From Trypanosoma brucei (lineage: Eukaryota): a stretch of DNA of 64,000 bases. The notes under the pieces are model-generated. The model was not told where the DNA came from. It saw only the letters and a list, made by a program, of their open reading frames with translations, and did not search any database. Made by a program: the position numbers and the translations under genes. Positions 3,190 through 60,297 of this stretch are shown here, piece after piece. Numbering within the stretch: the stretch's first letter is position 1; every line of letters begins with the position of its first letter. The stretch lies in the NCBI GenBank assembly GCA_000002445.1, contig CP000068.1, positions 1,504,001 through 1,568,000 of the forward strand, in the 5' to 3' direction.

Positions 3190-4721
3190 AAAATACCAAA
3201 ATACTATCAAATCTACAAAAGTAGCAGCAATCAGGGCAAATTTCTTATTTAAGAGTAAATTGGAATATTTTCACTCTGTCCCCTAAAATTCGCAACCATA
3301 TTTGCACTATTCTTCCGTTTTGTCTTTGCATTTCTCTGTCTTTGCTGCACCTCCCTCTGTTTCTGCTGTGTTTTTCTTTTCTTCTTCCTCTTTAGGCTTG
3401 CATTTTCCTTCTGTTTCAGTTTTTTCTTCCCATTTGAAGTTAACTTTGGGGCATGTTGTATTTCTGTTGTAATGGTCGCAAGCTACGCTGTTGGGTGCGG
3501 ATTTATCTACTGCAGTTGTTGAATGGGTAGCGCCGCTTACACCTGTCCATTGGATTGCCTTTTCTGTTTTGATTTCATGTTTGGCTTCGTTTGCTAAATC
3601 GCCTAGTATTTTGTTGCTCCGATTCCCTGCCTCGAGTTGGGGCTGCCTCTCCTCCATGTGATCCGCTAGGTTAGAGAACGCCGACACCCATGTTATTTTG
3701 TCCAGACCCGCTGGCCTCGCAGCTTCGTAGCCGGTGATTTTTATGCAAACCCCGCCGTTTTTTTTTCCATCGCAGGCTCCTCCAATTTTCGCGCCTAGGT
3801 AGCCGATCCCGTTAGCGGTATGGAATAGGGCACTGAGTTCTTTTATCGCGTTCCTTATGTCTCTGAATATGTAGGGTTTTTTTTTCTTGGCTGAGGGCAG
3901 GTTTTTACTATCTTTACTAGGTCGTCGTCCGGAGCTTTGTTTGCGGCGGTTCTCCACCCGGTTGTTCCTTCAGCTTCCTTCGTGCAGGCGCCGTCGGTTA
4001 CCTCTGTCGAGTCGGGTTTCTCGCACAGGCATGTTAGCGTTGCTAGTACAGTTTTGGCTCTTTTATTGCTGTCCGCCGCTTCACAGACTGTTTCCCTTGC
4101 TGTGTTTTGCGTGTCTTCGCCGAATGCGGCGTTGGATGTCTCCGCTCGTCTTTCGCTCACGTCGGCCCCATAGACTGCCATTTTAAGCGTCTTGCTAGCC
4201 TCTGCTTGTGTGCGTTCCAGCGCCGCAGCTGAAAGCTGCGGAAACGTCGACTTGATTCGGCGCGCCTTGTTACCAATCTTGCTTATGAACGCATGAGCGG
4301 CCGCCTTTTGTTCCTGTGTCAGCGCTCCCACCTTCAGTTCTTTCACATCCTGTGGTCCGCCGTCTTCGAGTACATCAAGGGCGGCTTTCTGCCAATCTGA
4401 CCAGCAATTGTCGTATCCGAACTTGTCTTTTCCGGCCGCTTTGGCATCGGCGTGCACGCTTTTGGCCGTTTTGTCTTCGTACATCATGTTTTGCCATTTG
4501 TAAGTTGAAGTTGATAGATTGAGCGCCTGAATAAGTTCATAGTCGTTTGAGCTTAGCGAGCTTGGCTGTGGTAAGTCGAAGGGGCTCTCCGCTATCGTCA
4601 CAAACTTGCACAATACCGCATACTCGTGGCGATTATCACCGGTGTTTATTGCTGCTGTTGTCTTATTAACGACAATTCAGGCTGAGAAAAAGCTTAGTAG
4701 CACTAGTGTAGCCTTGGTCAT
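3190..4721 (-). pseudogene. VSG pseudogene (B-type N-domain); in-frame TGA inside the signal peptide (MTKATLVLLSFFSA*), plus a frameshift between ORFs 3855..4613 and 3307..3957
   Basis: ORFs 3855..4613 and 3307..3957 overlap in different frames. The Cys-rich C-terminal domain (...CKPKEEEEKKNTAETEGGAAKTEKCKDK) and a GPI-like tail (LLLNKKFALIAATFVDL) sit in shifted frames. A degenerate 16-mer lies at about 3130-3145. Confidence 0.8.
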
Positions 4722-5616
4722 AGCTTTTTCTGATCGTGTCTGGCTTTGGATGCAGCAAAAAATGCTTGTTTGTGAGTGTACAGTTTTAAGAAAGTGTTGT
4801 TGTCGTCTTCTTGTGACACAGATCTCGGCTCGCTATCGGTTCTTCACCTTGCACTTGTGTTAAAACGGTATTTGATTAAGGTAATGTTTATTTTATGATG
4901 TATCAGGCGTTTTCACGCTGAATATACTTGGTTCAAATTGGCTATACAGCCACCGCCGCTCATGTCCTTCTAGCTAGTTCTGTGACTTTTTTAATGGTTT
5001 AATGCTAATGTTCAGTCACTTCTACAAAGTAAACATATGTTTGCTGCTCACTTATTAAATGCTTTTCTATTCCCCAATAACCTACTAAAGTAAACATATG
5101 TTTAAACACTCTATGAATACCTTGTCCCTGGGAGCGTAACATAAAGGCAGCCGTCCGCTCCGTAATAAAAAACAGAGCTGTTTACATCTCTGGTGCTTAA
5201 CCTATCAATTTCTGTCTGAAATGCGAAGAACAATTTCCCACATAATTTTATTTGGTACTGTGTTGAAGCGAATAATGTTTTCGTTCGGTATTTTCGTTCC
5301 TCTTTTTCGTCTACTGTTTCTGCTTTTACGGACGACGCAGTAGCTCTATTATGCCTGTATACATTAGATTCTGTCGCACCATTGTTGTTCTCTTCATCAT
5401 CTACTTTCGAATAATGATTCCCTTCGTTATATTACTTATGAGAATACGGATATACAATCTTTCTCTCTTTCTCTTTCTCTTTTTTAACAACATTCTTTTA
5501 CTCTATTCATTTATTTTAATTAATGTCTCACTTTTCTACTCATATCGCACAACAAAAATTGTTTTAAGTGCTTCTTTTTTACTTTTCAATTTATTCTTAG
5601 GAATGACTCTTAAAAT

Positions 5617-12718: not shown

Positions 12719-12928
12719 CTATAATTTTCTGAAATTCACAAAAGCAGAAACAATAAGAGCCAATTTCTTATTGACGAGGAAACTGAAATCTTTGCATTCT
12801 GTTCCTTCCCATTTGCAGTTTCCATTCTTTCTCCAATCAGCTGCTTTTTTAAATCCTTCGCATTCTTTGTTGGGGGATCGTGGCTGAAGCTGCATAAGCT
12901 TTGCCGGCTCTATAATGGTGCTCGCCAC
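12719..12928 (-). pseudogene. VSG C-terminal fragment (about 65 aa of C-terminal domain plus GPI signal) with its own 3'UTR; no N-terminal domain
   Basis: ORF 12719..12928 reads …SPNKECEGFKKAADWRKNGNCKWEGTECKDFSFLVNKKLALIVSAFVNF. The 5' end abuts the A-rich/telomere-like island at about 12930. Confidence 0.8.
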
Positions 12929-12929
12929 A

Positions 12930-13850
12930 TCGGCGATGCTCCGGCGGGTGGAGTAAAAAATCTTTTATATCCGCCGTAGCGGAGCCTCCGGCTGATGCAA
13001 CCGAAAAAAAGAACAAAAAATGAATTCCAAAAATTTCAAAGGTTAAAAAAGGCCATAAAATGGGGAAAAACGCGGAAGCGAAAAAAAAACGGTAAAAAAC
13101 AAAAAATGATTTAAAGTAACGAAAAAAAATGTCGCCGTGGGGGCTAATAAAAAAATTACAAAACTCAAAAAAATTTTAAATTGAATGTGTAACAAAAAAA
13201 TGATTAAAAAATGGTGAAGTAAAAAACATTGAAATTCAAATTAAAAAACTCGAAATGTTTTTTAAAAATCAAGAATGTTAAAAAATTTTAACACTAAAAA
13301 AAATAAAATCAATAACAAAATTGAAAGCCGCTTGTAGAAAAGCCAAGACAAAAAACAAAAAAAACTCGATGACACAAGATATAAACAGCCAAAAAAACCG
13401 TAGAAATTTGTCAAAAAGAGGGGGGAATTGAGTCGGTGGCGTTGGTGAAAAAAAATGTCAAAAGTGTAAAAATCAAAAATTTCTCGAAAAGGAACACAAA
13501 AAAGAAAAATTAAACGCCGCTGCTAAGCTGCAGACTCATAGGGGTTAGGGTGCGCATAACAAAGCAGCCGTCGCTTCATTAAAATTTTGAAAAAGATCTA
13601 AAGCCGCGCTGTTTCGCTGCTAGAAAAAAAAATATTAGTATCAGGGGAAATAAACATAACCCTAAGCCTGGAAACCCTCCCTAATCTACCTACCAACTTC
13701 GTACCTCCCTACCCACCTCCTCTCCTGCCTCGCTGCACAAAAAATTCAAAAAGAAAAAAATGGAAAATATTCTTTTATTTGTTAGAAAAAAATTTACAGA
13801 ATCAGAAACTTACTACCAGCTAACACATACAATATCCTCGACTGATTTTA
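12930..13850. repeat. A-rich low-complexity island with degenerate telomere hexamers (island 1). Plus strand has GGGGTTAGGG at 13541-13550 and CCCTAA-like units at 13659-13686
   Basis: Plus strand reads …cataggggttagggtgcgcataacaaagcagccg… and …aaacataaccctaagcctggaaaccctccctaatctacctacc…. It is paralogous to 22220..23430. It sits between the 3'UTR of VSG 13925..15543 and the VSG fragment at 12719..12928. Confidence 0.7.
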
Positions 13851-13924
13851 GGTGTTAAAATATATCAAATAGCAAGAATTTATCAAAAATTTTTTTAATA
13901 AAAAGAGAGGGGAAAAATTTGTTT

Positions 13925-15543
13925 TAGAAAAGCAAGGCCACAAAGGCAGCAGAAACCACGCTGAGGACGAATTGATTGTTTACTAGAAAACTGTAATCAT
14001 GGCATTTATAACCTGATTTGTCAGATCCATCAGTATTTTCTCCTTTCCAGCCACAAACTTTGGTAGTCTTACCTTCATTGGCCTTCTCACAGGTCGCCTG
14101 GTCTTTATGATCGGAGCATTTTACACCCTCGTCAGTTGATCCTGCAGTTTGAGTTTAGGTTACAGGGACGCCGTTTTTAGTGGCTTTGGTGGCATTGTAT
14201 TTCCACTTCTTATCTGTACTCTCTGTTTCATCATAAGTACAGAAATCCTTGGAATCGCAGGCATTTTTGTCCGCGTGGTGTGCTGCACACTCTTTCTGAG
14301 TCTGTGAGATTCTGTCGTCGGTTACTGACTTTGTTGCAAAATTTTTAATTTTGTCTTGCTGTTCAAGTAGCTCAAATGCCGCTTTTGCTTGGTAGTGAAG
14401 GAGTATTAACTCCAATTGCTTGGTATTAGTCTGAGAAATTAGCTTTGGGTCTTCTTGAGCTGTTGGGCTTACCAGCTCTTTGGGAATCGTCGCTGCTTGC
14501 ATCTCCTTCCATACTTTTTTGAGGCTGAGGTCTTTGTCGGTGGCGTAATGGTCTTTGATGGCGGCGTCTACCGTTGTTTGGTCTGTTTTCGCGTCGTAAT
14601 GTCCTGCTTGTTTTAAGAAAAAAATTTTGACGGCTCTTTTGAACTCTGTGGATGTCGTTATATCGGCGCTGTCTGGGTCGATCTTTTTTGCGGCAGTTAA
14701 AAGGCCGCTTGTTCTCCAGTTGTTCTGCGCGACCTGCGCTGCGTGCATGTCTTTTGGTGTCGTCCCTGCGTCTGCGGCGTCGAACGTCCCGAAGGGTGCG
14801 TGTTTGATCGAGTCGTCGCTTTGTATTAGTGTCAGGTACCCGGCTGCCATGGTTATATCCTTGTGGTTGCCGGCTGTTTCTACGAGACTGCCTGCCGCGG
14901 TTTTAAAGATGTTGCATGTGGGCGTGCCGGCCATCCGGGCCGCTGCTGAATGGTCGCTTGTGCTTGGTTTAAATAGCTTGTCTGGGTCGCCGCTATATGT
15001 TTTTGGATGTACTTTGCCTGTTGTGTCGGTTGCTAGTGCACATTGCGCCAGTGTGGTTGCCCCTTCTACTGTTGTTGTGCCTGCGATTTTCTCCAGGCAG
15101 CCGTGTGTGCCTGAGGTTGAGTAGCTGTCCGCTGCGATCGAGATGAATTCGGCTAGGCGTCCCCTTACGAAAGAAGTAGCTTGCGCTGCTGCCGGTGCCA
15201 TTTTAACGCCTTGAGTGGTTGTGTCAGTTGGCATTGCCGTTTTGGCCGCTATGCCCGCTATTAGTGGTAAAAGCTTCAGCCTCTTGGCCGGTTCCGCCTG
15301 GGAGGCGTAAATGCTTAGTTGAAGAGCGAGCTTTCGATTGTCTTCACTGTTTTCTAAGCTCTGCGCTAGGCTCTGTGACTGTTCGTTGAAGACCGCTGCT
15401 AGATTCGTTGTCATCTCACATATGGGCGTCCAAGTGCCGTGCGTTAACGCCTTGCCCGCGTTTCCGGTCGCCAGCGCTGATTGCACGAGCACGGATAACG
15501 CCATAAGGCCTAGCCGTAAGGTGAACTCTTGCTTACTTAGCAT
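13925..15543 (-). pseudogene. VSG, near-intact (A-type; signal peptide MLSKQEFTLRLGLMALSVLVQSALA; WTPIC); one in-frame TAA at 14155-14157 separates the 462-aa ORF from the last ~75 codons
   Basis: ORF 14155..15543 ends …TKNGVPVT*. The same frame continues TQTAGSTDEGVKCSDHKDQATCEKANEGKTTKVCGWKGENTDGSDKSGYKCHDYSFLVNNQFVLSVVSAAFVALLF* to 13925, giving a complete C-terminal domain and GPI signal. The 16-mer is at 13852. Confidence 0.85.
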
Positions 15544-16763: not shown

Positions 16764-18365
16764 TTATAAAATTAAGCAAAAATCCTTATAATTCTCAAAT
16801 GCTACCAAACCCACAAAAGCAGCAGAAACCACGCTGAAAGCGATTTTCTTATCGGGGAGAAAACTGGAATCATGGCACATTTCTTTTTCGGGCTCAGGTT
16901 CACCACCATTACCCTTCCTCCATGCACAATTTTGCTTGTCGCCTGTTTTGTCATTTTCACAAGCGAGTTTATCTTTGTGCGCTGTACACCTATTTGTAGC
17001 TGCTGCTTCCCCTGCTTGGTTTCCTGTTGTTTCTGCTGTGTTTTCCTTTACTGGTTTAGGTTTGCAACTGTTACCATCTGTGGCCTTCTCATCATACTCG
17101 CAGTGCTCGGTTGGGCATTCGGTGGGGGTTGTATTTTGCGGTTTGCATTTCCCCTCTTCTGCTTGCTGGGTTCTGCGGTCGAGTGTAGGGGGTGCTGGAG
17201 GAAATTCTGTTAGTGCCGGCTGGCGCCCAAGAACTTTCAGAGCTGCTATTTGTTGCCGCGCCTCTGCCTGCAGTAGGTGCACTGCCCTGTTGTGTTTGTT
17301 GACCTTGCCGATGTCATTGCTGAGGTTGATGATCTTGCTTACCCATGGAAGCTGCTTGAATTTAGTGTCATCATCTGATGTCAGACCGCTTATTTTTACA
17401 CAGAAACCGTTTGCGTTGTGGCCTTGGCAGTTCCCTGTCTTGAATGTTCTTAGGTAGCCGTTGCCGCTGTTTATGCTGATAGTTGAGTAAATGTCTCTTA
17501 GTGTATTTACCAGCAATTCGGGTGTGACCGTTGTGTCTTGCATCGCTGGACAGCCGTCGATTAGTGCCTTTACGTCTGTCATCTGTGGGCCGCCGGTTGC
17601 CGCTTCCCATTGGATTGCTGCGCCCGAGTGGTCGCAAATCTGATCGCCTGTTTGACCGTTACCTTTGATACACAGGCAGGCAAAGACGGCGCCTATAGTC
17701 GCCGCACCATTTGTGTTGTCTTTCGCTTCGCATGTTGTTTGCATGTTGGCTGCGGCCGCTGTTGCAAATAGGTTGTCTTTTATCGGTAACGTCAGGACAC
17801 CGTCCGCTGCTCCCGTTATCGCTGCTACTAGCTCTTTCTTTATGTCTTCCTTCGTGACCTGTTTGGTGTTTGTGATGTCATCCGCCAGTGCTGCTGCTTT
17901 TGCGTTCACTATCACTAGTGCTCGTTCGACAAATGTTTTGATGTACTTGGCGTTCGCTGGTGCTGCTGTTTGCAGATTAAACCTTTTCATTGTGCTCTTA
18001 TCTGTGTCTGCTTTTGCTAGTTTTGCTGCTTGCAGCCATCTGCCCCAGTTGTCTGACCATCCCGGGTTCGATTTCAGCTGGGTGGGTATCTCCGCTATGT
18101 CGTCTTTGTCGTTGCCGTCTTTGAAGAAGAGGTCCAACCACGTGGGATCGGAAAGCGTGGCGTTTATAGTTTCTAGGTCCGTCAGCTCCTGCGGCGTTAC
18201 TGGTAGTTGTGCTTCTGGTGCCGTCGGATTTCTTGCTAACCCTACAAATGTGCACAGTTTCTTGTAAACATAGCTGTTGTCAGCCGAACCTACATTGCCC
18301 TGGACGTTAGAAACTACGACCATCAGCTCGAAAAAAGCTAATTTGGCGGCGCTGTTTTGTTTCAT
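16764..18365 (-). CDS. VSG, apparently intact (533 aa; B-type N-domain; Cys-rich C-terminal domain; extended GPI tail …SAAFVGLVAFENYKDFCLIL)
   Basis: A single uninterrupted ORF: MKQNSAAKLAFFELMVVVSNVQG… to …CPTEHCEYDEKATDGNSCKPKP…EMCHDSSFLPDKKIAFSVVSAAF…. A 16-mer-like element sits at about 16715. There are no 70-bp repeats 5' of it; a VSG 5' fragment lies there instead. Confidence 0.85.
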   Translation of the reverse strand: MKQNSAAKLAFFELMVVVSNVQGNVGSADNSYVYKKLCTFVGLARNPTAPEAQLPVTPQELTDLETINATLSDPTWLDLFFKDGNDKDDIAEIPTQLKSNPGWSDNWGRWLQAAKLAKADTDKSTMKRFNLQTAAPANAKYIKTFVERALVIVNAKAAALADDITNTKQVTKEDIKKELVAAITGAADGVLTLPIKDNLFATAAAANMQTTCEAKDNTNGAATIGAVFACLCIKGNGQTGDQICDHSGAAIQWEAATGGPQMTDVKALIDGCPAMQDTTVTPELLVNTLRDIYSTISINSGNGYLRTFKTGNCQGHNANGFCVKISGLTSDDDTKFKQLPWVSKIINLSNDIGKVNKHNRAVHLLQAEARQQIAALKVLGRQPALTEFPPAPPTLDRRTQQAEEGKCKPQNTTPTECPTEHCEYDEKATDGNSCKPKPVKENTAETTGNQAGEAAATNRCTAHKDKLACENDKTGDKQNCAWRKGNGGEPEPEKEMCHDSSFLPDKKIAFSVVSAAFVGLVAFENYKDFCLIL

Positions 18366-19160: not shown

Positions 19161-19199
19161 CTGTTGTATATATAATATGTGGCTCCGTTTTATCGTCAT

Positions 19200-20156
19200 C
19201 CCGTTGTACCTGCTCCTGCGATAGTGCCGAGTACATAGTCGTGGTTGGTCTGGGTACAGTCTTTGTGCGTGAGCGGCGCTGCTATGATAGTTGGCTCCGG
19301 CGCCAGCGATGCTTAGTTTACTGTTGGCGCTATTGCTCCTTGAGAACAAGCTGCCTTTAGTTTGTTGCACTATTATTTAAAGTTAACCGCTCCTGCACTG
19401 ATAGATTTGCCGGAGTTTCCGGTTTCCGCATAGTCGCCGCAGCAAGCTTTGCCACCACTTGTATCGGGTACACCTTTGTTGACGCATAGAAAAATCGCAT
19501 CCTGTAGCAAGTTGCTGCCAGGTTTGGTTTCCGTCGTGCGTGAGGTCTGCAAGCACAATTTGGTTCTGTCCCTCCAGCACCCTCCGAAGGTTAGGTGGAA
19601 ACTTTTTGAGCTTGCTGCTGTGTTTCCATGGACTGCTTTGTTCAGCACTGCAGTTACTGCTGTTGGTTCTAACTGAGCTTTAAGCCCTTGAATTTCGTCG
19701 TTTAAGCTAAGTACTTGCTGCGCTAGTTGCGCTACCCGAGCTTGCGCTACCGACATCCCCTTGTGCTTTAGACATGGTGCGCACACAGCCTTGTTAGCAC
19801 CTGAAAGTTCCTGTTTCCTCTTTACCCAGGTGTCATGGAAGTTGTCCCATCCTTTACTGTTGCTTTGCAATCAGTATTCGCTGAATCTCACGGTTTCGTG
19901 ACTTCTATTCTATTGGTGAACGCATTGTCACTTACTTTCAGATTGATTGCTGAAACTGTCCTCAAGATAGAGTCCACTTCGGCCGATTGCTGTAATTGCC
20001 TAGGTCTAACGGTTGCAAGCCTGATGACTTCACACAGGGCGCAAATGCTGCATTGTTCTCGCTTGCTGCCGAGTTAGCTGTGGTTTTGCCTACGCTAGCA
20101 ATGATTACTGCCGCACAAAATTTCGCTTGCATATTGTTTACTGTGGAAGAACACAA
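19200..20156 (-). pseudogene. VSG 5' fragment (signal peptide, N-terminal and mid domain; no C-terminal domain or 3'UTR)
   Basis: ORF 19962..20156 (…MQAKFCAAVIIASVGKTTANSAAS…) and ORF 19373..19870 (…CAPCLKHKGMSVAQARVAQLAQQVLSLNDEIQGLKAQL…) are VSG-like. No 16-mer or C-terminal domain follows. Confidence 0.7.
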
Positions 20157-21475: not shown

Positions 21476-21760
<285 letters not shown>

Positions 21761-22084
21761 TGCAGTTACAACCGTAACTTTATATCTACAAAAAAATGGG
21801 AAATAAAAATAAATTAATATATTACTCATTTTAATATACAATCACCCCACTGGTGTACACACATGCCTCTGTCATACCAAAGTTTTACAAGTGAAGTTTT
21901 TCAAAATTTTCAATGAATTGCACAACTTGCAAAGGGTTGACAAAAAGTGTTATAATATATCATATTTAAAAAACATTTAAATTTTTTTTCAAAATAGCAA
22001 TTTTTATAAATTTTTATAAGTCTCATAAACTTGAGAAAAAGCTTTTACAAATGATTCGTAAAACTTTTATGCTAGAAGAAAAAT

Positions 22085-22215
22085 TACAAGCAAAAAAGAG
22101 GTCTTAATTAGAACAGAATTTATTCTTGAGTTTTTGTAGGGTTTCTATCATTTCCACCAGTTTGCGCTTCTTTTCCTACTTCCTTCTTGATTTCCTCACT
22201 TAATGTGCACATTTT
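22085..22215 (-). pseudogene. VSG C-terminal fragment (degenerate) with 3'UTR (16-mer variant at 21947)
   Basis: Reverse complement reads …GKMCTLSEEIKKEVGKEAQTGGNDRNPTKTQE*, the CTLSEE-type end of a C-terminal domain as in VSG 23509..24969. It abuts island 2 at about 22220. Confidence 0.65.
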
Positions 22216-22219
22216 TCCC

Positions 22220-23430
22220 TAGACGGCTTTTAGGTTAAAAACGTACCTCCGGAAGTTGAGCACCCTTGGCCGGGGTGTGCCAGCGTCAGATGGCGCTGCC
22301 GAAGTTTAATTGCTAATTATAATTATCAGCTGTTCCCCAATATGAGTATTTTTAAATTTATTTCCTCTTTAAAAGCAAATCGTTTCCCGCAGCGAAAGTG
22401 CCACGCGGCAGCGTTTTTGAAAAAAAAAAATTTGCTAGCCGCGTGCACCGCAAAACGCAAAGCTGAAATTCACGAAAGTAAAATAAACATAGGCGTAACG
22501 ATGTGAAGCTGAAAATAAAAAGAAAAAAGAAGCGCGGATAGCTCCAGTGGAAATAAGTGCCAGCCTTGTGCTTAAATAAAAAAAAAGAGCTGCATCACTA
22601 AAAAAATACAAATTTTTTTAGTGATATGAAGCAATCCAGGACGGAGGTGTGGAAAAAAAATTAATTAGCAGTCAGAGGAAAATTAACCCGATAACCCGAA
22701 ACACTCTAACCCTAACCCTGACCCTGACCCGAACCCGCTAACCCGAAACAGCCTGACCCGAAACACCCGCGCAAAAATGGGCAAAGAAAAAGTTGAGTGC
22801 TAAAACAAAAAAATTTAAAAAATCAAATCGCAAAAAAAAAATAAAAAAATCAAAATAAAAAACCAAAAACCGCGCAAAAACCGAAAATTAAAAGAAAAGA
22901 TTAAAAAAAATTTAAAAAATTGGAGCTTCGCGGGGTCGTGGGGGGGGGGAGGAGGGTTAGGGTCCGCATAACAAAAGAGCCGGTGCACGACTAAAGAAAA
23001 AAAAATTTAAAAAAACACAAAAAAATAAATTAAAAGCCAGCGCAACACAAAACTGCCGCTGCATCACTAATATGAAAAAAAGAAATTAAACGTCAGTGAA
23101 AAAAAGGAGGATCTGCTGCATCACTAAAAGAAAAAACTAAAACAATCCGCGATGGAGGTGTGAGTTGAAAAAAAAATTAATTAGCAGGAAGAGAGAAAAA
23201 TTAACCCTAACCGAGTAACCCTAAGCCTAATCCTAATCCTAACCCTAACCCTAACCCTAACTAACTAACCTAACCTAATTAACCACCCCCCCCATTCCTA
23301 CCTACCCCCCCCCCCACTTCCACAAAAAAAAACGGGAAAAGAAGGGAAAAAATTTTAAGTTATCAGAAAAAATTTCTAGACAATCAGACAGTCAACTTAC
23401 AAAAAACAGCTCAATTTTTTCGGCGGAATT
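22220..23430. repeat. A-rich island with degenerate telomere hexamers (island 2). C-strand-like tracts at 22701-22760 and 23203-23280; GGGTTAGGG at 22954-22962; G10 and C-rich homopolymers
   Basis: Plus strand reads …ctctaaccctaaccctgaccctgacccgaacccgctaacccgaaa…, …ggagggttagggtccgcataacaaaagagccggtgc… and …ttaaccctaaccgagtaaccctaagcctaatcctaatcctaaccctaaccctaaccctaactaactaacc…. An internal duplication is present (…ggaggtgtggaaaaaaaattaattagcag… at 22650 and 23150). Confidence 0.75.
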
Positions 23431-23508
23431 TAAAAGTGTTAAAATATATCAGAAAGTTTTTCAAGGAGCAAATTTTTAGCAAATTTCTTTTAAAAAGAGG
23501 GGAGGGAT

Positions 23509-24969
23509 TTAAAAAAGCAAAAATGCAAGCAAAAGAGGGGCCTTGTTAATGACAAAAGAATTGCTTCCTGTGGTGTTTGTGTTTCCAGTTTTGCTATCTT
23601 TCTCTCCTCCCTCTTTCTGAGCTGCTTCTTTCTCTTCATCACTCAATGTGCACTTTTTGCCATCCTCTTTCGTTTTATCATAAGTGCATCTGTTATTCGT
23701 GTCACAATCACTTTTTTCTTTCAAGTCGTTACAAGTTTGTTCTGCGGATTTTACATCCTGTTGCTTTTCAGTTGCTTGTGCTTGTAACTTAGCAACTTGG
23801 TCCGCCATTTGTTGCTTGTGTTTCACCTCCAGTATTTTGTAAAAAGCCAAAGTTACTTGTAAGATGCCAGCATCGTTTATTTCTTTGATTTTCGTATTGG
23901 TAGTGGCGCTTGGATCGACGTTGATCGCGTCTGCCTCATCTAGCTTGTTCAAAAAGCTTTTCACCTTTTCACCAGCCTCTCCAAAGTTCTCCTTGATTAG
24001 CACTTCGGCTTTGTCCTCCGCTTGTTTGCCGGCTTGTTTGCCGTACAGCTTGTGAAGTAGTTTCGTTAGGTGTCCTTTGAGTTTGCCCGTTGTTACTGCT
24101 GCTTTGATTATCGCTTCTGGTTCATGTGCGAGCTGCTGCGTTATGGCCGCCCTTATCGTGTCTGCGTCATTGAAAGCGAGCGTTAGGAGGTCGTCTGCAT
24201 CTCTGTTGGTTTGCTTTTTCAGGTTCTGCTGGCTCGTCCGTGTCACCCGGTTTGTTGTGGCTATTTTGAATAGCCCATATCCAAAGTTTACGGCCGTGGC
24301 TCCGGTTACGAAGGCTCCTGTGCCTGCACCTGCGAAGTTGACTAGCCCGCACTTGGTTGACACACTGGTTGCCATCCCGTTAGTTCCGGTGATTTCGTCG
24401 ATAGTCTTGAATCCAGTCGCGCTGATTATATCGGCGTCTAACGTTTCGCTTGGGGTTTTCTTCATAGTTTTTGGTCTCTGCTCGCAGCCAGCTGTTGCTA
24501 TGTCGGCTGTCTTGTCCTCGTCGGTGTCGGTGTCTGCTAGACAGTATCCTCCGCTGTGCTTCGCGCTTTTGAATACCTGGAGGCTTGCTTCAATGCCGCC
24601 GGTTAGCTCCTGAGTCGTCGCAGTTGCTTCGAGTGCTGTCTTGATGAAGTTGCTTCTCTGCCGTTCGCTTGCGTCCGCTTCTTCGTAAATGGCTGCGGCT
24701 GCTGCTGATAGCAGTGCCGTCGTTTCGACGTCGGACTGCGTAGTTGCCGCGTACAGGTTTAACTTCGCCGCTGTTCGCTCTGCTGCTGTTATCGCGTCCT
24801 GCAGGTTGCTTTCGTGTGTGTACGCCATTACTGGGACTTTCCGCAGTTCTTTGGCTATCGCACACGGTGGTTTCCACGTTTTGCCAAGCAATGGTTCGCC
24901 GGTCGCTGAGGCCGTGTTGGCTGCCCACTTCGTCATTAGTATCATTAGAGCTGTCGTGGCAACGGACAT
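23509..24969 (-). CDS. VSG, intact (486 aa; signal peptide, TWKPPC, C-terminal domain …KKCTLSDEEKEAAQKEGGEKDSKTGNTNTTGSNSFVINKAPLLLAFLLF*)
   Basis: Single ORF 23509..24969 with canonical N and C termini and a perfect 16-mer at 23436..23451. Confidence 0.9.
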   Translation of the reverse strand: MSVATTALMILMTKWAANTASATGEPLLGKTWKPPCAIAKELRKVPVMAYTHESNLQDAITAAERTAAKLNLYAATTQSDVETTALLSAAAAAIYEEADASERQRSNFIKTALEATATTQELTGGIEASLQVFKSAKHSGGYCLADTDTDEDKTADIATAGCEQRPKTMKKTPSETLDADIISATGFKTIDEITGTNGMATSVSTKCGLVNFAGAGTGAFVTGATAVNFGYGLFKIATTNRVTRTSQQNLKKQTNRDADDLLTLAFNDADTIRAAITQQLAHEPEAIIKAAVTTGKLKGHLTKLLHKLYGKQAGKQAEDKAEVLIKENFGEAGEKVKSFLNKLDEADAINVDPSATTNTKIKEINDAGILQVTLAFYKILEVKHKQQMADQVAKLQAQATEKQQDVKSAEQTCNDLKEKSDCDTNNRCTYDKTKEDGKKCTLSDEEKEAAQKEGGEKDSKTGNTNTTGSNSFVINKAPLLLAFLLF

Positions 24970-26524: not shown

Positions 26525-26660
26525 CTCCTGTTATAATATTCGTATATACACACACTCTCAACAACTTTCCTATCATTATCATCATCATCATTATCATTAT
26601 TACTGCTCTTATTATAATATTCGTATATACACACTCACAACACTCTCCTATTATTTTTTC
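26525..26660 (-). repeat. Two 70-bp repeat units
   Basis: gttataatattcgtatatacacacactctcaacaactttcctatcattatcatcatcatcattatcattattactgctcttattataatattcgtatatacacactcacaacactctcctattat. Confidence 0.9.
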
Positions 26661-30619: not shown

Positions 30620-32000
30620 TTGAGCGAAAATCCTCTAAAAATAATTGTAGAAACAAAAGAGGGACTTTAGTTACAGCAGAAATAACAACCGCAATCTACT
30701 TGACTTTGCACTCATTTTTCTCTTTGTCCCAATCGCATTTGTTTTTGTCACATTTGCCTTCTTCAGTGGCTTTGCACTCAGCTGCGGTTGTTTTGTTGTC
30801 CCCGTCTTTCTTTTCTTCTGTTTTGTCTGTTGCATCTGACTTGCTTGGGTAGTTTGCATTTTTGTTGTTTTTAGTTGTTTGTGATACCTTCGAGTTAGCT
30901 TCGTCCATCTGCCATGCCGGGGCTTCAGTGAGCTGGCCAAGAGGTGTGTTTTCTTTAATGTCCAGTTCGGCTCGCTCTTTGTTCTTTGTTATCGGTGGTT
31001 TAAGGATTTCTATGACGTTCCACAGTTTAGCTTTGTACTACTTTCCGCCTTCTCCGTAAGCTGCCGTTATTGCAGAGGTTAGCTTGTCTGGGGGGCTTGT
31101 GGAATCCTGTTCGTTGTTCGGCTGGTTAAGCAAACTGCGGATTGCCTGCCGCTTGAACAAAGGCGATGTGGAAACTGTTGCGTACTCAGTCAGCTGCCTG
31201 TCGCAAGCCGTGTTTGCTGCCGCGGCTTTGAGGTCCTTCAGAGCTTCTTGGGCCGCTTGCTGCGTCCCTTGCGTTATATTAACTTCGCCTTGTACGATCA
31301 CGTCTTTGCTGGCCGCTGAAGATCCCCACCTGCTTTTTGGCTTGTTAGTGACCTTTTCTATTTTTCTTGTTAGTTCGAATTGTAGGAAACCTGAGCCTGC
31401 AGCCGGGGCTGAACTGTGGCAGTTGTTCGAGCCGTCGCTGTCGCATGTTACAGTTATTGTGTGGTATTCTGTCGGTTGTAGTATTTCATTTTTTTCGTCA
31501 TCTTGGTTGTCGTCAAAGTCGGTTTGCTCGTCCTCCTTTTCGTCTCCGAAGTTGTCGGCTGTCTTGATGTTTACTGGTGTGGCGTCGAAGGCGGTGTCTT
31601 TGTAGTAGCTGCTGGTCTCTCGTGGCGTTAGTTTGACTTTTGTGCTTTTGCTTTGCCGCATCGCTAGGCCGCAACTTTTGCAGAGGCGTTTTCTAATGTT
31701 GGTAGACCTTTTTTCAGAGCACCTATCTGGTCGGTGACAGCTTCCTGGCATTCTTGAAGCACTTTTCCCGCCGCAGCCAGTGGTGCTAGCGCTTTGTGCT
31801 GTTGCTACGCCGGTTGTCGTCGCAGCTATGAGCAGTCTTGTCAAGTCTCTCTGCATCTTTACAAGGTTGTGGACGTTGATTTCAAGCTTCTGTGCATAGA
31901 ATGTCGATGCTTTGGCGAGTCGTTTGCTGCATTTACAAGGCGTTGGGCAGACAGCGTATGTTTCTTGCGCAGGTGCGGTCCCTGTCACCAAAGTTCAGAC
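30620..32000 (-). pseudogene. VSG pseudogene, degenerate (frameshifts in N-terminal and C-terminal domains)
   Basis: ORF 30696..30908 (…TAAECKATEEGKCDKNKCDWDKEKNECKVK) is the C-terminal domain. ORF 31038..31991 has a VSG-like C-terminal half (…ITVTCDSDGSNNCHSSAPAAGSGFLQFELTRK…AAQEALKDLKAAAANTACDRQLTEY…). A 16-mer variant is at about 30548. Confidence 0.7.
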
Positions 32001-47486: not shown

Positions 47487-48946
47487 CTAGAGGAAAAACT
47501 GCAAGCAAAAAGGGACTTTAATTACAGCTGAAAGAACCGTTCCCTCTTTAACTTTGCACTCTTTCTTTTCTGCGTTACAATCGCATTTTGTTTTGTCGCA
47601 ATCTTTCTCTTCGACGGCTGTGAAAACCTCGGCTTTTTTATCCCCGTCTTTCTTATCGTCTTTTTGTCTGGTTTTTCGCTTTGTTTGAGCTTTTCCTCTG
47701 AGCCTGATAACTGAGCTTTTTCCGCTGCTTCTTTGCCGAGATAATATGCTAATACGGTTACACCATCAGCTGTCCCTGCCAATTCAAAGGGAGTCTTTTT
47801 TATTGGCATGTTCCTTATTTTTATGTCAATCCTTGTCTTGTCAATAGTGTCTGTGACTCTTTGCTTGAATATTTCTGGCTTTGCGCCGAAAAACTTGTGA
47901 ACAAGCGCTTTCCTTTCGATTGCATCTTTTGGAAGTGGTGTGTCTGGTGATCTTATATCAGTTAGGGTTTCTGCTAACCGGTTTTCAGCTTCCAGTGTCG
48001 ACAACGGGCGGTTGTGTGGAGGTGTATATGCAGGTTTCGGGGTACGCCTTAGCTGGCAGATAGCTGCTGCTAGGGCTGTTGGTTTGTACTGGTGCGGCTT
48101 ACTGTCGTCGCTGATTTTTGGGCACGCCGTCTGGTCCCCTGTGCTCTTTAGTGCTATCTTCGTTTTTTTGTACGAGTGCGCTTTGTGTTCGACTTTGGGT
48201 AGCAGTGCGTTGGCTTGATTGGCGCCGTCAAAGTCTTGTGATGCCGTGATGCAGGCGCCGGTCGTGTGTGCGGATCCTACCATGGCTCCGTTTACTTCTC
48301 CTTTACTTAGGGACGTCGCTTCTAGGACGTGTCTGCTTGCGGCCGTTGCCGCCAGCGTTATGTGCTCGGTGGTCTGCCATTTGACGTTAGAGCGCTTTAC
48401 GTCGTCTTCTTCGCTGTCTAGGCTGCAATTTTGCGCGGTGTACGAGATTTTGACAGCCGCCTTGCAGCCGTGTATGGTGTTAGTTGAGCCAATTGTGAGT
48501 GGGCTGCCAAGTTTGCTTCCGCTCTCTAAAGTTATTGTTTTGGTTGCTGTATCGTGGTCAGTTAGGTGCACCGCTTCCTGTATTTTTATTATCTCCCGCG
48601 TCGCCGCTACTTGTTCGTTGTGAGCTAGTGTTGCAGAGATTAGCTGTGATACATCTGCCTCGGCGATTGTCGCTAGCGCTTTGAAGGCCACTGCTGTTAC
48701 TGCGTCGTCTGACGAAGCTGCTGCTATTATATATGCCACCGCAGCTTTAACAGCTGTAGTTGCAGCTGATCCGTCGCTCAAATAAGTCGTTTTGATTTTG
48801 TCGTTGATTAATTTAAGATATCTGGCCGTCTGGCCGGGTGTGGATACAGCCTGGCTGGCGGCGTCATCGTCGCCCATGGTGCCCGTTAACTGAGCTGATT
48901 CCACTAGTATTATTAGTGGCTGTCTCCCTGCGTTGGTGTAAAGCAT
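47487..48946 (-). pseudogene. VSG pseudogene (474-aa ORF covering the N-terminal domain; C-terminal domain frameshifted)
   Basis: ORF 47522..48946 is VSG-like through the N-terminal domain (…GSTNTIHGCKAAVKISYTAQNCSLDSEEDD…TGACITASQDFDGANQ…) but ends in non-VSG text (…KRKIATKQNAIVTQKRKSAKLKRERFFQL). The genuine C-terminal domain (…EEKDCDKTKCDCNAEKKECKVKEGTVLSAVIKVPFCLQFFL*) is in the adjacent frame. A 16-mer variant is at about 47398. Confidence 0.75.
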
Positions 48947-50214: not shown

Positions 50215-50395
<181 letters not shown>

Positions 50396-58851: not shown

Positions 58852-60297
58852 TTAAATATTTGCTCCTAAGGTCAAAAATGCAAGCAGAATAGGGTCCTTA
58901 TGAATGACAAAAGAATTGCTCCATGTGGTGTTTGTTGTTTTCTCTTTTTTTCCTTCTTGATTTTCTGCTGCCTCTCTGTCTTCTGCTGCTTTCCCTTCCT
59001 CACTCAATGTGCACTTTTGGCCGGCTGGCTTATTTTCATCGAATGTGCATCCTGTTTTCTTTCCACATTCAGTTTTATCATCTCCTGCTTTGTTGCACTC
59101 TTCATCCGCTTTGTTTTGTCTATTTGATTGGGCATCGCCGTCGTTTTTGCTATTTAGTAATGTCGTCATGGCCGGTACTGTGTCTTCTAGCAAATGCGTA
59201 ACGGTTAGGTTTAGCATGTGGATTCGTTGGTTTAAAAGCTTAAGTGTATGCTGATGTTTTTCGGCTTCCTGTAGTGTGCTGCCTGCGCTTGTTAGCTCTT
59301 TTACCCATGGGATGCCTTGGAGGCCGTTTTGTAGTTGCGCTGTTTGGTAAGCAACACATGGTCCGTGGGTGCTGGTGGCGTCGCCGCTGCAGCCTCCGGC
59401 TCCGGTGCCTTCGAGGTAGCCCAGTGTATTGTGGAAGTCACGGTTTGTTCCTTTGGATTTTGCCATCCGCGCTGCGAATCGGCTAAGGGCGGCGTTGATT
59501 GCCGCCGGGCTTAAGCCGAGTGAAGGCTTCTTGGTGTTGCATTTTTCTATGATGGCGTTGAAAAGTGTGGTCGGGTCGGCGTTTGGTGTCCAGTCGTTAT
59601 CTAGTTCGCCCCTGGTCAATTGTTTGCCGCATGCCGTGTTCCCCCTTGCCTCTCCGCTATGTTTGCCGCAAAGACATAATATGTCGAGGGCAATTGAATT
59701 ACCTGCGTGGCTCCCACCTTTTTTGTTGCTGTTGCCGCAGCCGCTAGCCCGGTTCGTGTCTGGCAGCCTTGCATTTTTGCTATTTCCAGTCTCGCCGTAG
59801 AGCGCTTTGGTTAGGGCAGCAGTGACGGCTTCAGCTTTAATTTGCTGCGCCTCATTTTTGGCCGTTTCGCTGATCTGAAATGCGACTTCTGCCGCCTGGA
59901 TTAACTTTCGCTTTGCCGCTGTCGTTAGTTGCCGTCGTCGTACTTCTGCATAAGATTTTTTGTCTTGCCCGTGGCTAACCTCTAGCACATTTTTTAGAAA
60001 CGCGTATTTGCTAGGTTTGCCGTCCGCCGCTTCTTTCATTGAGGCATTGGAATCACTGTAGTCCTTTTTTAGATCGATCTTGCTTATAAAGTCGGCGTTT
60101 GCAAGAGATATATTTATCACCCCAATTGTGGCTGCTATGTCTTGGGTATCATCGACGGCTGGCACTAGATTGACTTTGCTTTTGGCTAGCGCCGTTAGTT
60201 CGCAGAGAACCTCAAAATCTTCTTGATTCTCTCCCCCACTTATGACTCCATAGACCTGTAGTCTCGCTGTTATCAGAAAGACAACTATTGAAAACAT
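58852..60297 (-). CDS. VSG, apparently intact (481 aa; A-type N-terminus GGENQEDFEVLCEL; C-terminal domain …KCTLSEEGKAAEDREAAENQEGKKEKTTNTTWSNSFVIHKDPILLAFLTLGANI*)
   Basis: Single ORF 58852..60297 with signal peptide MFSIVVFLITARLQVYGVISG and a perfect 16-mer at 58792..58807. The 3' end deviates slightly from the canonical …LLAFLLF*. Confidence 0.85.
   Translation of the reverse strand: MFSIVVFLITARLQVYGVISGGENQEDFEVLCELTALAKSKVNLVPAVDDTQDIAATIGVINISLANADFISKIDLKKDYSDSNASMKEAADGKPSKYAFLKNVLEVSHGQDKKSYAEVRRRQLTTAAKRKLIQAAEVAFQISETAKNEAQQIKAEAVTAALTKALYGETGNSKNARLPDTNRASGCGNSNKKGGSHAGNSIALDILCLCGKHSGEARGNTACGKQLTRGELDNDWTPNADPTTLFNAIIEKCNTKKPSLGLSPAAINAALSRFAARMAKSKGTNRDFHNTLGYLEGTGAGGCSGDATSTHGPCVAYQTAQLQNGLQGIPWVKELTSAGSTLQEAEKHQHTLKLLNQRIHMLNLTVTHLLEDTVPAMTTLLNSKNDGDAQSNRQNKADEECNKAGDDKTECGKKTGCTFDENKPAGQKCTLSEEGKAAEDREAAENQEGKKEKTTNTTWSNSFVIHKDPILLAFLTLGANI

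What the first reader, a model, noticed from the sequence alone, without database searches (positions are those of the whole stretch)
22220..23430. Second, paralogous telomere-like island with internal tandem duplication and homopolymer tracts, 3' of the only fully canonical intact VSG
Island 2 shares blocks with island 1 (gggttagggt[c/g]cgcataacaaa[a]gagccg; …ccctaagcct…ctacctacc…). It contains longer degenerate C-strand arrays (22701-22760: CTAACCCTAACCCTGACCCTGACCCGAACCC…; 23203-23280: AACCCTAACC…CCTAATCCTAATCCTAACCCTAACCCTAACCCTAACTAACTAACC). A roughly 450-bp unit is tandemly duplicated (…GGAGGTGTGG/GAGTTGAAAAAAAATTAATTAGCAG… at 22650 and 23150). It also has G10 and C-rich homopolymers. 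As in island 1, the flanks are an intact VSG with its 16-mer on one side (23509..24969) and a degenerate VSG C-terminal fragment with 3'UTR on the other (22085..22215). Two independent copies with identical architecture, each next to the best-preserved VSGs of the window, argue for a recurrent process that moves a telomeric VSG plus downstream sequence into the array, rather than a one-off accident.
Basis: partly seen in the sequence, partly recalled or inferred. Interest (0 to 1): 0.7.

Follow-up and report, generated by a model that had tools for sequence, protein, structure and literature searches.

The report
Telomere-type VSG flank inside gene array
Inside a silent array of trypanosome coat-protein (VSG) genes, the one fully intact gene is followed by about 1.2 kb of the kind of DNA reported next to chromosome ends, then by the severed tail of another VSG. 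This looks like a scar of recombination that moved telomeric VSG sequence into the archive.

Summary
The window is Trypanosoma brucei TREU927 chromosome 5, a VSG array with genes on the minus strand. On the gene's sense strand, region 22243-23435 reads: 16-mer, conserved about 100 nt, G11/G8 tracts, TTAGGG-like array, T-rich DNA carrying an inverted ACCCTAACCC plus C10 module, then a second TTAGGG-like array. Telomere-like hexamers occur only here and at 13.5-13.7 kb.

Both islands, and a third I found in a T. equiperdum array contig, align colinearly. They form a 3' flank class distinct from 14 ordinary array flanks. Each of the three is followed by a VSG fragment lacking the N-terminal domain (C-terminal domain only), then an ordinary flank and 70-bp repeats.

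Corrections:
- The "450-bp tandem duplication" is a 120-175-nt block repeated at about 515-nt spacing.
- Island 1's VSG has an in-frame stop.

Best reading: a telomere-type VSG 3' flank, copied into the array by recombination that was homologous at one end and illegitimate at the other. It is a scar, possibly giving this VSG telomere-like downstream homology.

I could not compare it directly with genuine telomeric flanks. Interest is moderate: a new member of a known kind.

The parts
23509..24969 (-). Intact A-type VSG with a canonical type-2 C-terminus (…GSNSFVINKAPLLLAFLLF). It equals XP_845141.1/AAZ11582.1 of T. b. brucei TREU927 chromosome 5, and is probably Tb927.5.5080.
   Evidence: Pfam PF00913 at 2.6e-83. 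100% identity to P0033. C-terminus read. The Tb927.5.5080 assignment is inferred from Hall 2013 Table S1.
23436..23508 (-). VSG 3'UTR. It ends in the exact conserved 16-mer TGATATATTTTAACAC (23436-23451).
23331..23435 (-). Flank-specific conserved segment just after the 16-mer (…CGAAAAAATTGA…TCTGATTGTCTAGAAA…TTTTTGTGGAAG). It is shared only with island 1 and the T. equiperdum island.
   Evidence: Alignment A5. Flank-class clustering. blastn to L004 at 73% over 104 nt.
23202..23330 (-). G-rich tract (G11 and G8 on the sense strand; C11 at 23305-23315 and C8 at 23286-23293 on +) followed by the proximal TTAGGG-like array (23202-23284, about 13 units, 3 of them perfect and consecutive).
23115..23201 (-). 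Proximal copy of the repeated block: TTAA-T5-CTCTCTTCCTGCTAATTAAT9…CACACCTCC…GGATTG…TAGTGATGCAGC.
23033..23082 (-). Degenerate copy of the TAGTGATGCAGCGGC…TTTTGT module.
   Evidence: Alignment A4. nhmmer E 1.2e-10.
22927..23009 (-). Conserved module …TAGTCGTGCACCGGCTCTTTTGTTATGCGGACCCTAACCCTCCT-C10. It holds telomere hexamers in inverted orientation (22951-22963) plus a C10 run (G10 on +, 22940-22949).
   Evidence: Five copies occur across the three islands.
22769..22926 (-). T-rich spacer (A-rich on +), with oligo-T runs.
   Evidence: The AT skew is reversed relative to the rest of the array.
22683..22768 (-). Distal degenerate TTAGGG-like array (GGGTCA/GGGTTA/GGGTTC units and a 15-nt derived unit GGGTGTTTCGGGTTA).
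22589..22682 (-). Distal copy of the repeated block (TTAATTTTCCTCTGACTGCTAATTAAT8…CACACCTCC…GGATTG…TAGTGATGCAGC).
22243..22588 (-). Mixed-composition segment (31-53% GC) of unresolved origin. It is either the distal end of the flank or a decayed hinge/C-terminal coding remnant of the disrupted resident VSG.
   Evidence: No DNA match elsewhere in the window. Only weak VSG protein matches, residues 396-417 on 22310-22245 at E about 0.06.
22085..22242 (-). Orphan, frameshifted type-2 VSG C-terminal fragment (GKMCTLSEE… then …NSVLIKTSFLLVIFLL in another frame). No N-terminal domain lies upstream of it.
21947..22084 (-). 3'UTR of the orphan fragment, with a 1-mismatch 16-mer (21947-21962). An ordinary array-type flank follows.
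21498..21720 (-). 70-bp-repeat region of the next cassette: core at 21703-21720 and a perfect (TAT)58 tract at 21498-21673.
26630..26647 (-). 70-bp-repeat core upstream of the intact VSG. It marks the upstream edge of the cassette that holds the island.
13003..13851 (-). Island 1, a related member of the same flank class. It has a short TTAGGG-like block (about 13655-13690), the inverted-hexamer module (13520-13597) and about 540 nt of T-rich DNA.
12728..12955 (-). Orphan VSG C-terminal fragment distal of island 1. It starts near the hinge between the N- and C-terminal domains (residue about 374 of a 515-residue VSG).
13924..15543 (-). A-type VSG pseudogene upstream of island 1. It has a single in-frame stop at 14155-14157 and is otherwise in frame through to …SVVSAAFVALLF.

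Best explanation
The island is the non-coding 3' flank of a formerly telomeric VSG, now sitting inside a silent array.

Anatomy, read on the VSG sense strand (shown): 16-mer, a conserved about 100 nt, G-tracts, TTAGGG-like repeats, T-rich DNA built of repeated sub-units that carry an inverted hexamer/C-tract module, then a second TTAGGG-like block.

How it got there (inferred):
1. A break occurred in a resident array VSG.
2. It was repaired with a telomeric VSG as template.
3. The upstream end invaded by homology, either at the 70-bp repeats or at the conserved C-terminal domain.
4. Synthesis ran through the VSG 3' end and into the telomere-type flank, where the array has no homology.
5. The event closed by illegitimate or microhomology joining to the other broken end, near the resident gene's hinge between the N- and C-terminal domains.

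This leaves the orphan C-terminal fragment with its own 3'UTR and ordinary flank. The island has no autonomous function.

Its likely consequence is that it gives this intact VSG about 1.2 kb of telomere-type homology downstream. A copy into an expression site could then end beyond the gene. This last step is speculative.
For: 1. Telomere-like hexamers are confined to the two islands. They lie with TTAGGG on the VSG sense strand, as at a real VSG telomere.
2. The first hexamers start about 225 nt (island 2), about 235 nt (island 1) and about 215-240 nt (T. equiperdum) after the stop. Each whole flank is about 0.9-1.3 kb. Both figures fall within the 200-1590 nt between VSG and telomere repeats in expression sites (PMC2567434).
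3. [quoted passage not shown] That paper uses them to flag five minichromosomal donors.
4. The flank is a separate class from the 16-mer onward. Fourteen ordinary flanks cross-match one another. The three island flanks match only each other.
5. The base skew is reversed. The sense strand is T-rich (T 0.40-0.41) against A-rich in the other flanks.
6. A third copy in T. equiperdum contig CZPT02000751.1 has the same order of parts, its own internal duplication and its own orphan fragment. At 75-88% identity to island 2 it is not an ortholog.
7. The only two orphan C-terminal fragments in the window both sit immediately distal of an island.
8. The orphans of island 1 and the T. equiperdum island begin near the hinge, at residues about 374 and 397. 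For island 2 the firm match starts at residue 433, with only a weak match (E about 0.06) from residue 396.
9. Island plus orphan lies within one cassette, bounded by 70-bp repeats at 26630 and 21703.
10. The VSG has no relative above 34% identity among the VSG sequences returned from other strains. The only two neighbours checked (16764-18365 and 58852-60297) have counterparts in EATRO1125: sequences in the same 90%-identity clusters, plus one at 87% identity. This fits a strain-specific acquisition.
Against: - No genuine telomeric VSG flank could be retrieved, so sequence membership in the telomeric flank class is untested.
- No perfect long (TTAGGG)n tract or telomere remnant is seen at the distal junction.
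- The donor and the pre-event allele are unknown, so microhomology at the junction cannot be assessed.
- The 346-nt segment 22243-22588 is unexplained.
- Why the second-end junction should fall near the hinge in island 1 and the T. equiperdum island (island 2 is uncertain) is only loosely explained.
- The orphan fragments are not detectably closer to their neighbouring VSG's C-terminal domain than to others. This gives no support to variants of the model that need homology there.
Confidence: 0.6

Rival explanations
1. In-situ relic of an old chromosome end. The VSG once was the last gene before a telomere. The telomere eroded, and array DNA was added beyond it by break-induced replication or by fusion with a fragment broken inside another VSG.
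For: - It produces the same local structure.
- All three flanks are near full length at 0.9-1.3 kb, as expected if erosion stopped at the base of the repeat tract (PMC2567434).
- All genes keep one orientation.
Against: - Protein accession numbers rise with window coordinate. So the VSGs, and the TTAGGG strand, probably lie on the minus strand of the chromosome record.
- If the array is in the right arm, which is my inference from the gene number, TTAGGG points inward, the wrong way for an in-situ relic.
- It does not explain junctions near the hinge.
- It would require two such accretions within 10 kb.
Confidence: 0.15
2. Not telomere-derived. It is an old, alternative class of array VSG 3' flank that happens to carry telomere-like motifs. 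It spreads within arrays by segmental duplication together with its orphan fragment, while the adjoining VSG is later exchanged by gene conversion.
For: - The three copies are old and diverged, at 68-90% identity in blocks.
- The architecture, including the orphan fragment, is identical, as duplication from one ancestor would give.
- Short TTAGGGTTAGGG motifs also occur in ordinary array flanks beside 70-bp repeats in T. equiperdum.
Against: - The orphan fragments are of different types and different lengths, and the T-rich parts do not align.
- Hexamer orientation and distance from the VSG match telomeres.
- The literature ties such repeats to telomere-proximal VSGs.
Confidence: 0.15
3. A dispersed A-rich element or retroposon tail (read on the + strand) that is unrelated to VSG biology, or an assembly chimera.
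For: The + strand is A-rich with many oligo-A runs.
Against: - No other copy exists in the window or in the six T. equiperdum loci.
- There is no ORF of note and no Rfam family.
- The boundary with the VSG sits exactly at the 16-mer.
- The same structure occurs in an independent assembly of another taxon.
Confidence: 0.04

Closest known systems
Conserved 3' flank of telomeric VSG genes (Aline & Stuart 1989, Exp Parasitol 68:57; used as the 'TTAGGG-like repeats' marker of telomere-proximal VSGs in Hall et al. 2013, PMC3708902)
   Same: It lies directly 3' of a VSG 3'UTR. TTAGGG-like degenerate repeats run co-directionally with the gene. Its length falls within the VSG-to-telomere distance of expression sites.
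   Different: It is internal, with 22 kb and 40 kb of array on either side. It is followed by an orphan VSG C-terminal fragment and another cassette, not by a telomere tract. Sequence identity to real telomeric flanks is untested.
Interstitial telomeric sequences left as scars of break repair or end fusion in other eukaryotes (review PMC6410037)
   Same: Short, degenerate telomere repeats at an internal site. The most plausible origin is a repair footprint.
   Different: Here the repeats are only part of a 1.2-kb structured subtelomeric flank that moved together with a gene end. The architecture recurs with a specific partner, the orphan C-terminal fragment.
VSG segmental gene conversion and '3' donation' (Hall et al. 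2013, PMC3708902)
   Same: It involves the same recombination-prone parts of the cassette: the 70-bp repeats, the C-terminal domain and the 3'UTR.
   Different: The known process acts in the expression site and leaves a clean junction by homology. Here the product sits in the silent array. The 3' junction looks illegitimate, and it duplicates a C-terminal domain.
One-ended homologous repair closed by end joining (long-tract gene conversion, from my own knowledge) and microhomology-mediated joining in T. brucei (PMC2377438)
   Same: It predicts exactly such a product: a donor tract running past the end of homology and joined to the second broken end.
   Different: No junction microhomology can be read without the parental sequences. 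The mechanism is inferred.

Membership tests
Telomere-type VSG 3' flank | Starts immediately after the VSG 3'UTR 16-mer | tested here: met
   Divergence from array-type flanks begins at the 16-mer.
Telomere-type VSG 3' flank | TTAGGG-like repeats on the VSG sense strand within about 0.2-1.6 kb of the gene | tested here: met
   The arrays lie 225 nt and about 740 nt after the stop. The range comes from PMC2567434.
Telomere-type VSG 3' flank | Sequence similarity to flanks of VSGs known to be telomeric | not testable with these tools
   No telomeric VSG locus could be fetched. TREU927 records were not returned. The metagenome scan was empty.
Telomere-type VSG 3' flank | Continues into the terminal (TTAGGG)n tract at a chromosome end | tested here: not met
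   It is followed by an orphan C-terminal fragment, an array-type flank, 70-bp repeats and further cassettes.
Interstitial telomeric sequence | Telomere repeat units at a chromosome-internal position, more than chance would give | tested here: met
   14 hits against 2.9 expected, none of 100 shuffles reaching 14. The site is internal to a 64-kb array window.
Functional telomere or telomere seed | Long perfect repeat tract | tested here: not met
   The longest perfect run is three consecutive TTAGGG units (plus a partial fourth); the rest is degenerate.
70-bp repeat | GAGAGTGTTGTGAGTGTG core plus a TAA/TTA tract | tested here: not met
   The cores lie at 21703 and 26630, outside the island.
   Only a 120-175-nt block recurs, at 511-526-nt spacing. 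Tandem Repeats Finder, limited to periods up to 500 nt, reports no long-period array.
Known structured RNA or coding element | Rfam family match or a substantial ORF | tested here: not met
   No Rfam match. Only ORFs of 54-58 aa, of low complexity.

The most novel reading that the evidence does not exclude
Telomere-type flanks inside arrays may be the footprints of regular return traffic from telomeres (expression sites, minichromosomes) into the silent archive. Each event would leave an orphan C-terminal fragment. Many of the C-terminal-only VSG fragments in the archive would then be scars of such events. The inherited telomere-type downstream homology would also raise the activation probability of the adjoining gene. 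That would fit this 'array' VSG being recovered repeatedly, and as early as day 10, in TREU927 infections.
Probability: 0.25. Interest if true: 0.7.

Novelty: new member of a known kind. Interest (0 to 1): 0.45.

Why it matters
How VSGs that are assembled or selected at telomeres get back into the heritable silent archive is poorly documented. So is why a few array VSGs are activated as readily as telomeric ones. An array-internal telomere-type flank paired with an orphan C-terminal fragment is a simple sequence signature. It could be counted genome-wide and across strains to measure telomere-to-array transfer. It could also be used to test whether downstream homology sets activation rank.

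Tried and rejected
- Fetching the same locus, or other TREU927 arrays, from other assemblies: the exact proteins were 'not on record'. Independent-assembly confirmation of this very locus was therefore not possible.
- Four of the six T. equiperdum loci (L001, L003, L005, L006) had ordinary or masked flanks. L002 had only a two-unit TTAGGG motif beside its 70-bp repeats, in an ordinary flank.
- A metagenome scan for the conserved module returned nothing.
- Nine full-text searches found no open-access paper describing telomere-type flanks inside arrays. Marcello & Barry 2007 could not be opened. I did not try Berriman 2005 or the Aline & Stuart 1989 text, so prior mention in any of these three cannot be excluded.
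- Folding the G-rich strand as DNA gave no special stability, z = 0.27.
- Integration of a circular [C-terminal domain-3'UTR-flank] molecule by a single crossover was considered. The orphan fragments are not specially similar to the neighbouring VSG's C-terminal domain, so it has no support beyond fitting the topology.
- No DNA match for the distal 22216-22640 segment elsewhere in the window.

Full report
**What the window is.** The long minus-strand ORFs carry Pfam VSG N-terminal domains of type A or B, with or without the C-terminal domain. The VSG 3'UTR 16-mer, read as GTGTTAAAATATATCA on the + strand, occurs 18 times within 3 mismatches against 1.3 expected. 70-bp-repeat cores punctuate the sequence. 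The VSG at 23509-24969 is 100% identical to XP_845141.1/AAZ11582.1 of T. b. brucei TREU927, on a 1,608,198-bp contig, chromosome 5. Two neighbours are AAZ11581.1 (16764-18365) and AAZ11583.1 (58852-60297). Accessions rise with window coordinate, so the genes probably lie on the minus strand of the record. All descriptions below are read on the VSG sense (minus) strand.

**Checking the observation.**
- CCCTAA-type 12-mers with up to 2 mismatches give 14 hits against 2.9 expected. Every hit falls at 13539-13665 or 22704-23260.
- The shared blocks are real. 22954-22982 matches 13542-13570 at 90%, and 23234-23450 matches 13651-13866 at 68% (E 1e-8).
- The internal repeat is real but smaller than claimed. 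A block of about 120-175 nt occurs twice at 511-526-nt spacing, 75% identical over 126 nt, E 1e-17. It comprises a hexamer array, TTAA, CTGCTAATTAAT(8-9), CACACCTCC, GGATTG and TAGTGATGCAGC. The about 350 nt between the two copies does not recur.
- The VSG is intact, with a canonical type-2 C-terminus. Every other long VSG ORF in the window has an atypical or truncated end. GenBank agrees on the three genes I could look up: plain 'VSG' for this one and 'atypical' for 16764-18365 and 58852-60297.
- Island 1's VSG is not intact. It has one in-frame stop at 14155-14157.

**Anatomy of island 2**. In order on the sense strand:
1. stop codon at 23509-23511
2. 16-mer at 23451-23436
3. a conserved segment of about 100 nt
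4. T-run, G11, G8
5. TTAGGG-like array at 23284-23202
6. block copy 1
7. a degenerate module
8. the module TAGTCGTGCACCGGCTCTTTTGTTATGCGG-ACCCTAACCC-TCCT-C10 (23009-22927), whose hexamers are inverted
9. a T-rich spacer
10. the second, more degenerate array at 22768-22683
11. block copy 2
12. a 346-nt mixed segment at 22588-22243
13. a frameshifted type-2 C-terminal fragment starting at about 22242, with its own 3'UTR and a 1-mismatch 16-mer at 21962-21947
14. an ordinary flank and the next cassette's 70-bp repeats at 21720-21498

The upstream 70-bp core is at 26630. The island and the orphan fragment therefore sit inside a single cassette.

**A distinct flank class.** I took the 300 nt after the 16-mer of 13 window cassettes and 4 T. 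equiperdum cassettes. Fourteen flanks cross-match each other, including the flank of the orphan fragment at 21962. The flanks of island 2, island 1 and one T. equiperdum locus match only one another. They align colinearly from the 16-mer to the hexamers. The inverted-hexamer module occurs in five copies across the three islands. Profiles built from these alignments find no other copy in the window or in six T. equiperdum loci, about 114 kb in all. The islands are T-rich on the sense strand (T 0.40-0.41) where every other flank is A-rich. There is no Rfam family, no meaningful ORF and no unusual fold stability.

**A third instance elsewhere.** T. equiperdum contig CZPT02000751.1 (locus L004) carries the following, in order:
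- a B-type VSG and its 16-mer
- the same conserved segment, then G-rich DNA and TTAGG-TTAGGG-TTAGGG
- T-rich DNA with two copies of the inverted-hexamer module (3257-3378 and 3672-3789, 84% identical, 415-nt spacing)
- at about 4195, a VSG C-terminal domain without an N-terminal domain, with its 3'UTR
- 70-bp repeats at 4886-4928, followed by further array

Identity to island 2 is 75-88% in blocks. This is far below what I would expect, from my own knowledge, between orthologous loci of these close taxa, so it is another paralogue. An internal duplication of a few hundred bases is thus a family trait, not a peculiarity of island 2.

**The orphan fragments.** tblastn of 76 VSG proteins against the window finds C-terminal-like segments without an adjoining N-terminal domain only at 12728-12955 and, more weakly, 22085-22242. 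Both sit immediately distal of an island. By my own arithmetic, placing two orphans at random among about 17 cassette junctions would hit both island junctions with probability 1/136. The orphans of island 1 and L004 begin near the hinge between the N- and C-terminal domains, at residues about 374 of 515 and about 397. For island 2 the firm match begins at residue 433 and a weak one (E about 0.06) at 396. The orphans differ in type. They are not specially similar to the neighbouring VSG's own C-terminal domain.

**Link to telomeres.** This link rests on three things.
- Orientation: TTAGGG runs 5'-3' away from the VSG, as at a VSG telomere.
- Distance: the first hexamers lie 215-240 nt after the stop and the whole flank is 0.9-1.3 kb. 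Expression-site clones show 200-1590 nt between VSG and telomere repeats (PMC2567434).
[quoted passage not shown] In that paper's Table S1 the mark is applied to five minichromosomal donors.

I could not fetch a genuine telomeric flank, so direct sequence membership remains untested.

**Mechanism.** The product has the form 70-bp repeats, VSG-A, telomere-type flank, then the C-terminal domain and 3'UTR of VSG-B, an ordinary flank and the next 70-bp repeats. That is what one-ended homologous repair of a broken array gene would give. The template is a telomeric VSG. Synthesis runs past the last shared homology (C-terminal domain/3'UTR) into the flank. The event closes by illegitimate joining to the second end. 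T. brucei is known to use microhomology joining (PMC2377438, listed; the mechanism itself is from my own knowledge). Every step of this mechanism is inferred.

The in-situ relic model, an old chromosome end with array added beyond it, gives the same local map. It fits less well if, as the accession order and the gene number suggest, TTAGGG points toward the chromosome interior. A non-telomeric 'alternative flank' family that spreads by duplication cannot be excluded.

**Possible consequence.** The cluster of this VSG contains seven Hall 2013 cDNA clones plus one further expressed-VSG entry, A5JS60. The only chromosome 5 donor in Hall's Table S1 that is intact, A-type and has a type-2 C-terminal domain is Tb927.5.5080 (Set_19, class 'array'). 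It has no mosaic or 3'-donation flag, and a day-10 clone of that set is listed among the 3' donors. The identifier mapping is my inference. No relative above 34% identity was returned from other strains. The two neighbours I checked (16764-18365 and 58852-60297) have counterparts in EATRO1125: sequences in the same 90%-identity clusters, plus one at 87% identity. An array VSG that behaves like an early, whole-gene donor and carries a telomere-type flank is suggestive. The flank might supply downstream homology, or an unassembled telomeric twin might exist. Neither was tested.

**Verdict.** The feature is real and non-random, and it belongs to a recurrent class. It is best read as a relocated telomere-type VSG 3' flank with a repair scar. 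It is a new member of known kinds (the telomeric VSG flank and interstitial telomeric sequences). Its specific pairing with orphan C-terminal fragments may make telomere-to-archive transfer measurable. The open-access literature I could search does not describe it. Older or closed papers may.

Noticed in passing
window 21498-21673 and 50260-50394: Perfect trinucleotide tracts, (TAT)58 and (ATT)45, lie within 70-bp-repeat regions. They are unusually long and uninterrupted compared with the other cassettes in the window.
   Followed up: no
window 23509-24969 versus 16764-18365 and 58852-60297: The intact VSG next to island 2 has no relative above 34% identity among the returned VSGs of other strains. 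Both neighbours checked have EATRO1125 counterparts: sequences in the same 90%-identity clusters, plus one at 87% identity.
   Followed up: partly
window 47522-48946: A 474-aa minus-strand ORF in a VSG cassette position has no Pfam hit. tblastn with other VSGs nevertheless marks 47690-48925 as N-terminal-domain-like. It is probably a divergent or frame-disturbed VSG.
   Followed up: no
window 19199-19759 and 30708-31472: N-terminal-domain-like VSG remnants with no detectable C-terminal domain. They are the converse of the orphan C-terminal fragments.
   Followed up: no
L002 710-766 and L004 4848-4860: Short telomere-like motifs (TTAGGGTTAGGG, TTAGGGTTA) sit just upstream of 70-bp repeats in otherwise ordinary array-type flanks of T. 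equiperdum.
   Followed up: no
L004 20-37: A 70-bp-repeat core lies on the opposite strand upstream of the T. equiperdum VSG that carries the island.
   Followed up: no
L004 3021-3031; L006 5912-6067 and 6126-6202: Runs of N in the T. equiperdum loci coincide with the 16-mer and 70-bp-repeat positions. Parts of these conserved elements therefore cannot be read.
   Followed up: no
window 22594-22625: A perfect 14-nt inverted repeat, ATCACTAAAAAAAT/ATTTTTTTAGTGAT, separated by 4 nt. It overlaps one copy of the TAGTGATGCAGC motif.
   Followed up: no
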